Assembly: GCA_964016885.1 (NCBI GenBank)
Contig: OZ024749.1
Coordinates: forward strand, 44,640,001 to 44,704,000
Reading direction: 5' to 3'
Length of the DNA stretch: 64,000 nucleotides
Source of the DNA: Eledone cirrhosa
Lineage: Eukaryota
Positions 43,345 to 43,492 of this stretch are shown here, piece by piece. Made by a program: the position numbers and the translations under genes. The first letter of the stretch is position 1. The number at the start of each line of letters is the position of its first letter. The notes beneath the pieces are model-generated. The model had not been told where the DNA came from, did no database searches, and saw only the letters and a program-made list of their open reading frames with translations.

Positions 43345-43345
<1 letters not shown>

Positions 43346-43490
43346 GAATTCTACCCAGGGCTTCCTGATGATTTCTCCGGAATGAAACAGTTCTAGTCCT
43401 GTAGAAGCCTTTCTAGATTAAATATTTATTTTCTGCTTTGTATTGAGTACCTTACTTATTGTGGTTACCCCCGATTAAACCCGGGATAAG

Positions 43491-43492
<2 letters not shown>
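43345..43492 (+). mobile_element. Family B element in (TA)n
   Basis: Homologous to 18206, 18677 and 44692; the 3' end CCCGGGATAAGCT abuts (TA)n. Confidence 0.8.
43357..43411 (+). ncRNA. Type I hammerhead ribozyme (family B, best copy)
   Basis: Stem I AGGGCTTC/GAAGCCTT; core CTGATGA at 43365-43371; stem II T-TTC-TCCG-GAA-T; GAA; stem III ACAG/CTGT with loop TTCTAGTC; GUA cleavage triplet ending at 43403. Confidence 0.8.

What the first reader, a model, noticed from the sequence alone, without database searches (positions are those of the whole stretch)
43345..43492. Family B: (TA)n-embedded short element carrying an apparently intact hammerhead ribozyme
Seen: all canonical core nucleotides (CUGAUGA, GAAA, GUA triplet), an 8-bp stem I and a 4-bp stem III whose loop contains palindromic CTAG. 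Across copies at 18315, 18799, 43365 and 44813, stem II TTC/GAA is largely kept while its 4-nt loop varies (TAAT, TCCC, TCCG, TAAA), as expected if structure is conserved. The unusual U-U pair closing stem II is constant. Known: Penelope-like element (PLE) pLTRs and retrozymes carry type I hammerheads with palindromic loop 3 that cleave as dimers. Inference: this is a self-cleaving, microsatellite-targeting retroelement family with a non-canonical hammerhead variant.
Basis: partly seen in the sequence, partly recalled or inferred. Interest (0 to 1): 0.85.

Follow-up and report, generated by a model that had tools for sequence, protein, structure and literature searches.

The report
Penelope retroelement end with hammerhead ribozyme
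This 148-base repeat sits in TA microsatellites, recurs in many copies, carries a hammerhead-ribozyme sequence predicted to fold best as a two-copy dimer, and is likely the tail end of a known kind of jumping gene (a Hydra-clade Penelope-like retroelement) in which the odd U-U pair is ordinary.

Summary
43357-43411 (+) is a complete type I hammerhead motif: 8-bp stem I, intact core, U10.1·U11.1, 3-bp stem II, quasi-palindromic stem III, predicted cut after 43403. Co-folding two copies gives the double hammerhead. Four loci lie in the window, all between (TA)n runs. 9,481 contigs of one run match the element; inside the ribozyme, visible common variants are confined to loop 2.

The U·U pair is not novel. 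It occurs in 14 of 25 Hydra-clade Penelope-like families, which also target (TA)n, and in unrelated natural hammerheads.

Best reading: the 3' end (ribozyme plus tail) of a Hydra-like Penelope element, present as heavily 5'-truncated or non-autonomous copies. The direct-plus-inverted layout matches known Penelope insertions. Not shown: cleavage, expression, or a link to an RT/GIY-YIG gene; no genome was held. Verdict: new member of a known kind, modest interest.

The parts
43345..43492 (+). Longest family B copy in the window: 12 nt leader, hammerhead, 89 nt downstream of the predicted cut
43286..43344 (.). (TA)n run, left flank; shared with a family A insertion to its left
43357..43364 (+). 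Stem I, 5' strand (8 bp with 43404-43411)
43365..43371 (+). Hammerhead core CUGAUGA (C3-A9)
43372..43383 (+). U10.1·U11.1 (43372, 43383) closing a 3-bp stem II; loop 2 at 43376-43379 is hypervariable across the family
43384..43387 (+). Core GAAA (G12-A15.1)
43388..43401 (+). Stem III and 8-nt loop 3 with palindromic CUAG (43393-43396); predicted to pair between two copies
43402..43403 (+). U16.1-A17; predicted cleavage after 43403 (untested)
   Evidence: hammerhead consensus as given in PMC3088659
43404..43411 (+). Stem I, 3' strand; a second subfamily differs at 43407 and 43409 with matching changes inferred on the 5' strand
   Evidence: tables 3, 5c, 7
43412..43429 (+). AT-rich segment where inverted arms end against (TA)n, about 20-25 nt past the cut; inferred inner start site of reverse transcription
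   Evidence: (table 7)
43430..43492 (+). Tail found on direct arms only; holds the TTGAGTAC motif (43443-43450) shared with family A
43493..43547 (.). (TA)n run, right flank
44692..44822 (-). Family B direct copy, 5'-truncated within stem I (3 bp left), 109 of 128 identical to the 43345 copy
18206..18314 (-). Family B direct arm starting at the GAAA core
18312..18374 (+). Inverted 5' arm of the same insertion; reaches stem I; 3-nt overlap with the direct arm
18677..18792 (-). Family B direct arm starting inside the core, mutated
18793..18863 (+). Inverted 5' arm with core change G5A and a broken stem II pair
44230..44257 (-). 28-nt family B remnant (stem III to stem I 3' strand)

Best explanation
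The element is a (TA)n-embedded, high-copy repeat carrying a complete type I hammerhead motif, and it is likely the 3' end (ribozyme plus tail) of a Penelope-like retroelement, probably of the Hydra clade, left as heavily 5'-truncated or non-autonomous copies. Shown: the motif, the TA flanks, the copy abundance, loop-2-restricted variation, the direct-plus-inverted layout and two recurring 3' end points. Inferred mechanism: an RT/GIY-YIG protein encoded elsewhere nicks both strands of a (TA)n run and primes reverse transcription at two RNA sites, the tail end (about 89 nt past the cut) and an inner AT-rich site (about 20-25 nt past it). Synthesis usually stops at or just beyond the ribozyme. 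Where both strands are extended, the two cDNAs would join through short self-complementary ribozyme stems, giving the palindromic insertions. In the master element's tandem transcript two ribozymes would fold as a double hammerhead and cut after the GUA, probably weakly or with protein help. Most genomic copies are probably inert.
For: Motif and TA flanks. Family size: 9,481 contigs in run X1, 5,976 of 12,467,656 reads in X21, 319 contigs in X4, 37 in X5 of another species label. In X1, 21 of 22 variant rows at 4% or more are visible; in 43365-43406 they fall only on three loop-2 positions (3 of 4 loop positions against 0, at most 1, of 38 others; Fisher p 0.0003-0.0014, positions not independent). 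Stem I differs between two subfamilies by two compensatory pairs (C-G to A-U, G-C to A-U), read from loose ends and tandem reads. Two-copy minimum-energy fold is the double hammerhead, -34.2 against -27.2 kcal/mol for two monomers. 2 of 4 family B loci and 4 of 5 family A loci are plain direct-plus-inverted insertions; 12 opposite-strand joints are among the 15 listed. In X21, 917 and 809 loose ends behind 43406 and 43409 run into AT-rich sequence. Craig 2021 describes inverted 5'-truncated copies and optional tails as Penelope hallmarks. Its Hydra clade has (TA)n targets in 26 of 27 families and U·U in 14 of 25 hammerheads, and 4 of 25 share the ACAG/CUGU stem III. A GAGYA(C/G) tail motif is visible in 4 of 6 Hydra consensus ends (by eye, post hoc). 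A purified Penelope-clade protein nicks and extends both strands and starts at two internal RNA sites (PMC11167929).
Against: No RT or GIY-YIG match among 136 ORFs of the window, and no genome was held, so the defining ORF is unlinked. The published octopus Hydra-1 hammerhead differs in sequence from this one. Loop 3 is 8 nt here against 1-3 nt in the Hydra table. The loop 3 homoduplex is not significantly better than loop shuffles (12% as good). Window alignment shows no covariation above shuffles (163 of 500). 21 variant rows were hidden, nearly all from X21, and could include core positions. Upstream loose-end consensus is poor (agreement 0.41-0.57), so the 5' extent is unknown. The frequency of U·U in Neptune, Nematis or Poseidon elements was not tested. 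In vitro, the one purified system did not need ribozyme cleavage for insertion.
Confidence: 0.75

Rival explanations
1. The family is a stand-alone non-LTR retrozyme whose master is a head-to-tail array of a 77-nt unit, processed by dimeric hammerheads into small linear or circular RNA.
For: In X21, 78 reads from 16 starts jump from 43406 back to 43362 with 32-33 letters between, in several sequence versions (tables 5 and 5c). Tandems would allow the dimer fold within one RNA. Retrozyme units of 51-972 bp are reported (10.64898/2026.07.22.740005).
Against: This is 78 of 5,976 laid reads, seen in 1 of 4 runs; 0 of 4 window loci are tandem. The 63-nt tail is not in the unit, yet all 4 direct arms carry it. 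Partial tandems are also a normal Penelope product, and the preprint argues retrozymes are Penelope derivatives anyway.
Confidence: 0.1
2. It is a Penelope-like element of another (TA)n-targeting clade (Neptune, Nematis or Naiad) that reached the U·U form independently.
For: (TA)n targeting is also reported for Naiads, and microsatellite bias for Neptune. The same U·U plus UUC/GAA stem II occurs in unrelated type I and type III hammerheads: 8 of 14 distinct metagenome hits complete the fold against 74 of 4,000 shuffles, so convergence happens.
Against: Naiads lack canonical hammerheads and are described as inactivated remnants in cephalopods. G10.1-C11.1 is described as highly conserved in minimal hammerheads of other metazoan Penelope elements.
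Confidence: 0.11
3. It is a MITE-like or fold-back DNA element, and the hammerhead look is chance.
For: Half of the loci are palindromic and sit in TA; Rfam gives no hammerhead match; the monomer fold is not favoured.
Against: The inverted repeats are internal with a one-sided tail, not terminal; junctions vary; 2 of 4 loci have no inversion. The core appears invariant while loop 2 varies. Rfam's gathering thresholds also missed complete U·U hammerheads in 12 metagenome loci searched.
Confidence: 0.04

Closest known systems
[quoted passage not shown] 2021, PMC8557442)
   Same: (TA)n insertion (26 of 27 families), type I hammerhead near the 3' end, U10.1·U11.1 in 14 of 25, ACAG/CUGU stem III in 4 of 25, an inverted 5'-truncated copy noted for Penelope-13_HM, a member known in Octopus bimaculoides.
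   Different: No ORF linked here; copies are under 200 nt; loop 3 is 8 nt and quasi-palindromic; the sequence is not that of Hydra-1_Obim or any family in the table (motif searches of the supplement found no match).
Minimal dimeric hammerheads of metazoan Penelope elements (Cervera and de la Pena 2014, PMC4209133)
   Same: Type I, palindromic stem III region, predicted dimer, mostly found as single dispersed motifs or as opposite-strand pairs.
   Different: Those have G10.1-C11.1, a long stem II and little or no stem III; this one has U·U, a 3-bp stem II and a 4-bp stem III.
Poseidon element of Anolis (Frangieh et al. 2024, PMC11167929)
   Same: Two 3' end points that define an optional tail; AT-rich targets; both strands nicked and extended.
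   Different: There the ORF starts inside the ribozyme; here both ATGs in the motif meet a stop within six codons (read).
Metazoan non-LTR retrozymes (Cervera and de la Pena 2020, PMC7229834; Li et al. 2026 preprint)
   Same: Non-coding, type I hammerhead, a minority of tandem units.
   Different: Retrozymes are defined by tandem units and 170-400-nt linear and circular RNAs; here dispersed tailed and inverted copies dominate and no RNA was examined.
Natural U10.1-U11.1 hammerheads (Perreault et al. 2011, PMC3088659)
   Same: Same mismatch, reported as the best-tolerated mispair at that position.
   Different: Activity of this particular sequence is untested.

Membership tests
Type I hammerhead ribozyme | Core C3 U4 G5 A6 N7 G8 A9, G12 A13 A14, A15.1-U16.1, H17 | tested here: met
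Type I hammerhead ribozyme | Three helices around the core | tested here: met
   8, 3 and 4 bp; all three form in the two-copy minimum-energy fold; the monomer fold is 1.6 kcal/mol above minimum
Type I hammerhead ribozyme | Canonical paired 10.1-11.1 position | tested here: not met
   U·U; a published tolerated variant, common in Hydra elements
Type I hammerhead ribozyme | Match to an Rfam hammerhead model | tested here: not met
   complete U·U hammerheads in metagenome loci were also missed
Type I hammerhead ribozyme | Structure conserved across copies | tested here: inconclusive
   Loop-2-restricted variation and two compensatory stem I pairs between two subfamilies; window alignment not above shuffles
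Type I hammerhead ribozyme | Self-cleavage | not testable with these tools
   needs an in vitro assay
Penelope-like element (EN+) | ORF with telomerase-like RT and GIY-YIG endonuclease | tested here: inconclusive
   None in 136 window ORFs; no genome held; absence is expected for truncated or non-autonomous copies
Penelope-like element (EN+) | Inverted 5'-truncated copy next to a direct copy | tested here: met
   2 of 4 loci; 12 opposite-strand joints among 15 listed
Penelope-like element (EN+) | Optional 3' tail (two end points) | tested here: met
   Inverted arms end about 20-25 nt, direct arms 86-89 nt past the cut; the tail is longer than the 30-40 bp described
Penelope-like element (EN+) | Partial tandems forming pseudo-LTRs | tested here: inconclusive
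   78 tandem reads in 1 of 4 runs; none in the window for family B
Hydra clade | RT/EN signature (RWK, DKT, no CCHH, CxCX5C linker) | not testable with these tools
   no ORF available
Hydra clade | (TA)n insertion | tested here: met
   4 of 4 loci, both ends
Hydra clade | Hammerhead near the 3' end | tested here: met
   89 nt from the end; U·U as in 14 of 25 families
Non-LTR retrozyme | Head-to-tail units each with a hammerhead | tested here: inconclusive
   0 of 4 window loci; 78 of 5,976 reads in X21
Non-LTR retrozyme | Linear and circular monomer RNA | not testable with these tools
   no raw RNA run was laid
MITE / TIR DNA transposon | Fixed terminal inverted repeats on all copies | tested here: not met
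   inversions are internal, variable and absent from 2 of 4 loci

The most novel reading that the evidence does not exclude
Families B and A are not broken ends but complete ~150-nt SINE-like parasites of Hydra-clade Penelope elements, made of little more than a dimeric U·U hammerhead and a shared protein-binding tail. Their palindromic insertions record two target-primed cDNAs joined through the ribozyme's own stems, and 77-nt tandem arrays are the masters that yield a tiny self-cleaving RNA. Thousands of copies would then be a natural record of how Penelope elements finish integration.
Probability: 0.2. Interest if true: 0.55.

Novelty: new member of a known kind. Interest (0 to 1): 0.3.

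Why it matters
As a family it is ordinary: Penelope-like elements make up 6.83% of one octopus genome in 190 families (PMC13282606 supplement). Its use is as material. How Penelope elements make tandem and inverted insertions and what their hammerheads do are stated open questions (PMC8557442; PMC11167929). A very short, abundant family with mappable inversion joints and two fixed end points makes the two-primer model testable by counting junctions. It also shows a blind spot: U·U hammerheads were missed by Rfam here and in 12 metagenome loci.

Tried and rejected
Rfam: no hammerhead among the listed matches for the window or the 91-nt motif; the microRNA matches are microsatellite artefacts far below gathering scores. 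Monomer folding: not more stable than shuffles. Pair counting on the 7 window arms: not above shuffles, and its two double changes come from non-homologous truncation edges. Pfam on 136 ORFs of 55 aa or more that passed a complexity filter: 3 sub-threshold matches, none RT or GIY-YIG. Exact 23-nt family motif in prokaryotic genome contigs: 0. Metagenome (20 stretches) and viral (4) hits share only the 24-28-nt core with the family, so they are analogues, not members; the 4 viral hits repeat the motif of L010. Earlier scan findings: none returned. Motif searches of the Craig 2021 supplement found no family B or A sequence. I considered calling the 77-nt unit the smallest retrozyme and dropped it: units down to 51 bp are reported. 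Summed contig depth was not used as a copy number. A translated ORF starting in the ribozyme, as in Poseidon, was rejected on stops. Searches for an octopus hammerhead paper (5 papers, 4 listed) and for twin priming in Penelope elements (2 papers) showed no description of this family in titles and abstracts; Repbase, Dfam and the O. vulgaris library were not searchable, so it may already be catalogued.

Full report
Observation. The window is 30.6% GC, packed with microsatellites, and has no recognisable protein domain. No genome is held for it. The host looks like an octopus from a 17-copy SINE-like repeat; that label is recalled and was not tested. At 43357-43411 (+) lies a complete type I hammerhead motif: 8-bp stem I, CUGAUGA, U 43372, 3-bp stem II with a 4-nt loop, U 43383, GAAA, 4-bp stem III with an 8-nt loop holding CUAG, and GUA ending at 43403. 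The core-plus-stem-II pattern occurs 3 times against 0 in 100 shuffles. Rfam lists no hammerhead for it.

Copies in the window. There are four loci plus a 28-nt remnant, 80-85% identical over the long arms. All four have TA runs at both ends. Only 43345-43492 has a whole ribozyme. They would fold into long hairpins rather than ribozymes, and 18799 has G5A. In both, the inverted arm reaches further 5' (43362, 43359 in reference coordinates) than the direct arm (43384, 43367). Inverted arms end about 20-25 nt past the cut, direct arms 86-89 nt past it.

Family in public runs. I laid 4 of the 23 listed runs. Laid records: 9,481 contigs (X1), 319 contigs (X4), 5,976 of 12,467,656 raw reads (X21, reduced-representation DNA) and 37 contigs (X5, another species label, one record identical over 43360-43409). 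X1 may be the sample the window came from. So the family is abundant; no copy number can be read from these tables. In X1 the tally gives 22 variant rows at 4% or more, 21 of them visible. Within 43365-43406 they fall only on loop-2 positions 43377-43379, each with two or three common letters (Fisher p 0.0003, or 0.0014 if the hidden row lies in the core; positions are not independent). 21 rows overall were hidden, nearly all from X21, and may include core changes. Loose ends and tandem reads show a second subfamily whose stem I reads AGAUUC/GAAUCU against GGCUUC/GAAGCC here: two compensatory pairs, but one evolutionary contrast, and the upstream consensus has only 0.57 agreement. 12 of the 15 listed joints change strand (5 more hidden). 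917 and 809 reads leave the reference behind 43406 and 43409 into AT-rich sequence; the first consensus matches the end of the window's 18206 inverted arm. 78 reads from 16 starts show a head-to-tail repeat of about 77 nt, in X21 only. Pair counting on the 7 window arms gave no signal (163 of 500 shuffles as high).

Folding. The monomer hammerhead is 1.6 kcal/mol above its minimum-energy fold. Two copies co-fold into the double hammerhead as their minimum (-34.2 against -27.2 kcal/mol for two monomers). The loop 3 homoduplex alone is matched by 12% of loop shuffles, so the palindrome is not striking by itself.

The U·U pair. It is not new. Perreault 2011 reports natural U10.1-U11.1 and calls it the best-tolerated mispair (passages). 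My scan of metagenome contigs with only the core and stem II returned 20 stretches, 14 distinct; 8 of the 14 complete stems I and III (2 type I, 6 type III) against 74 of 4,000 flank shuffles. Rfam gathering thresholds found no hammerhead in the 12 loci searched. Most telling, the hammerhead table of Craig 2021 shows U on both sides of stem II in 14 of 25 Hydra-clade families (my count; one family with two rows counted once, two families share a motif), and 26 of 27 Hydra families insert into (TA)n. Four share the ACAG/CUGU stem III. One is annotated with an inverted 5'-truncated copy. A GAGYA(C/G) motif like the TTGAGTAC in the tails of families A and B (8 of 9 window matches) is visible in 4 of 6 Hydra consensus ends (by eye, post hoc). 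The octopus Hydra-1 hammerhead is a different sequence. I did not test how often U·U occurs in other Penelope clades; Cervera 2014 describes G10.1-C11.1 as highly conserved there.

Mechanism. Shown: motif, target, abundance, architecture. From the literature: Penelope insertions carry inverted 5'-truncated copies and optional tails; a purified Poseidon protein nicks AT-rich DNA on both strands, extends both, and starts at two internal RNA sites that define the tail; its ribozyme needs protein and is dispensable for insertion in vitro. Inferred: a Hydra-like RT/GIY-YIG protein acts on this RNA, priming from both strands of a TA run at the tail end and at the inner AT-rich site. The two cDNAs join through short complementarity in ribozyme stems. 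A simple snap-back of one cDNA predicts the direct arm reaching further 5', the opposite of the 2 of 2 family B cases. In a tandem transcript of the master, two ribozymes would cleave as a dimer. I put the Hydra-like Penelope reading at 0.75, another Penelope clade at 0.11, a stand-alone tandem retrozyme at 0.10 and a DNA element at 0.04. Whether copies are truncated ends of a long element or a complete short non-autonomous element is open: the 43345 copy starts 17 nt before 43362 and tandem units start about 16 nt before it, which hints at a fixed 5' end, but loose ends are too mixed to decide. That the master's ribozyme cleaves I judge about 0.65 likely; that this genomic copy does so in vivo is much less likely.

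Papers seen. PMC8557442: abstract, passages, section 11, supplement parts 2, 52, 53 of 59 and motif searches. PMC4209133: parts 1-2 of 4. PMC11167929: parts 1-2 of 4. PMC3088659, PMC6765202: passages. PMC7229834: abstract and passages. 10.64898/2026.07.22.740005: parts 1-2 of 5, supplements not seen. PMC13282606: passages and a supplement search; its repeat library was not seen and may contain this family. Repbase and Dfam could not be searched.

Verdict. Real, correctly spotted, and most likely a new family of a known kind. The feature that drew the high first score, the non-canonical U·U pair, is the usual form in the clade it most resembles. Interest 0.3.

Noticed in passing
window 13242-13634, 25752-25918, 40249-40437, 43086-43285, 44424-44613: Family A: a second TA-embedded family with the same direct-plus-inverted layout. 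It holds the 3' half of a hammerhead (GAAAC, stem III with palindromic UGAGCUCA loop, GUC) and a long self-complementary stem II; no window copy shows the CUGANGA half. It shares the TTGAGTAC tail motif with family B. The 13242 locus is a 168-bp tandem.
   Followed up: partly
window 23804-23946 and 55806-55947 (minus strand): Two-copy AT-rich family with CUGA(A/U)GA, a long stem II, GAAA and an 8-bp wobble-rich stem I; possibly a third, older hammerhead-bearing family.
   Followed up: no
window 39676-40048: 370-bp imperfect palindrome next to a TA run (298 of 371 identical to its reverse complement) with a degenerate GAAAC...GUA motif; possibly an old inverted Penelope-type insertion.
   Followed up: no
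window, 17 intervals such as 43814-43952 and 43983-44228: Abundant SINE-like family; recalled as an octopus-type SINE, not tested.
   Followed up: no
L001, L002/L017/L019, L004/L018, L006, L007, L010 (same motif in L020-L023), L012, L015: Complete type I and type III hammerheads with U10.1·U11.1 and the same UUC/GAA stem II in environmental and viral contigs; none found at Rfam gathering thresholds in the loci searched. L017 has two copies 705 bp apart.
   Followed up: partly
window 43359-43362 (reference coordinates): 3 of 6 family B arms in the window end within these 4 nt of the stem I 5' strand, suggesting reverse transcription stalls or switches there; unexplained.
   Followed up: partly
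window 43086-43492 and 44420-44822: Twice, a family A and a family B insertion share one TA run, as expected if both target the same repeat.
   Followed up: no
window 42948-43026 and 59619-59697: Small two-copy repeat of unknown kind.
   Followed up: no
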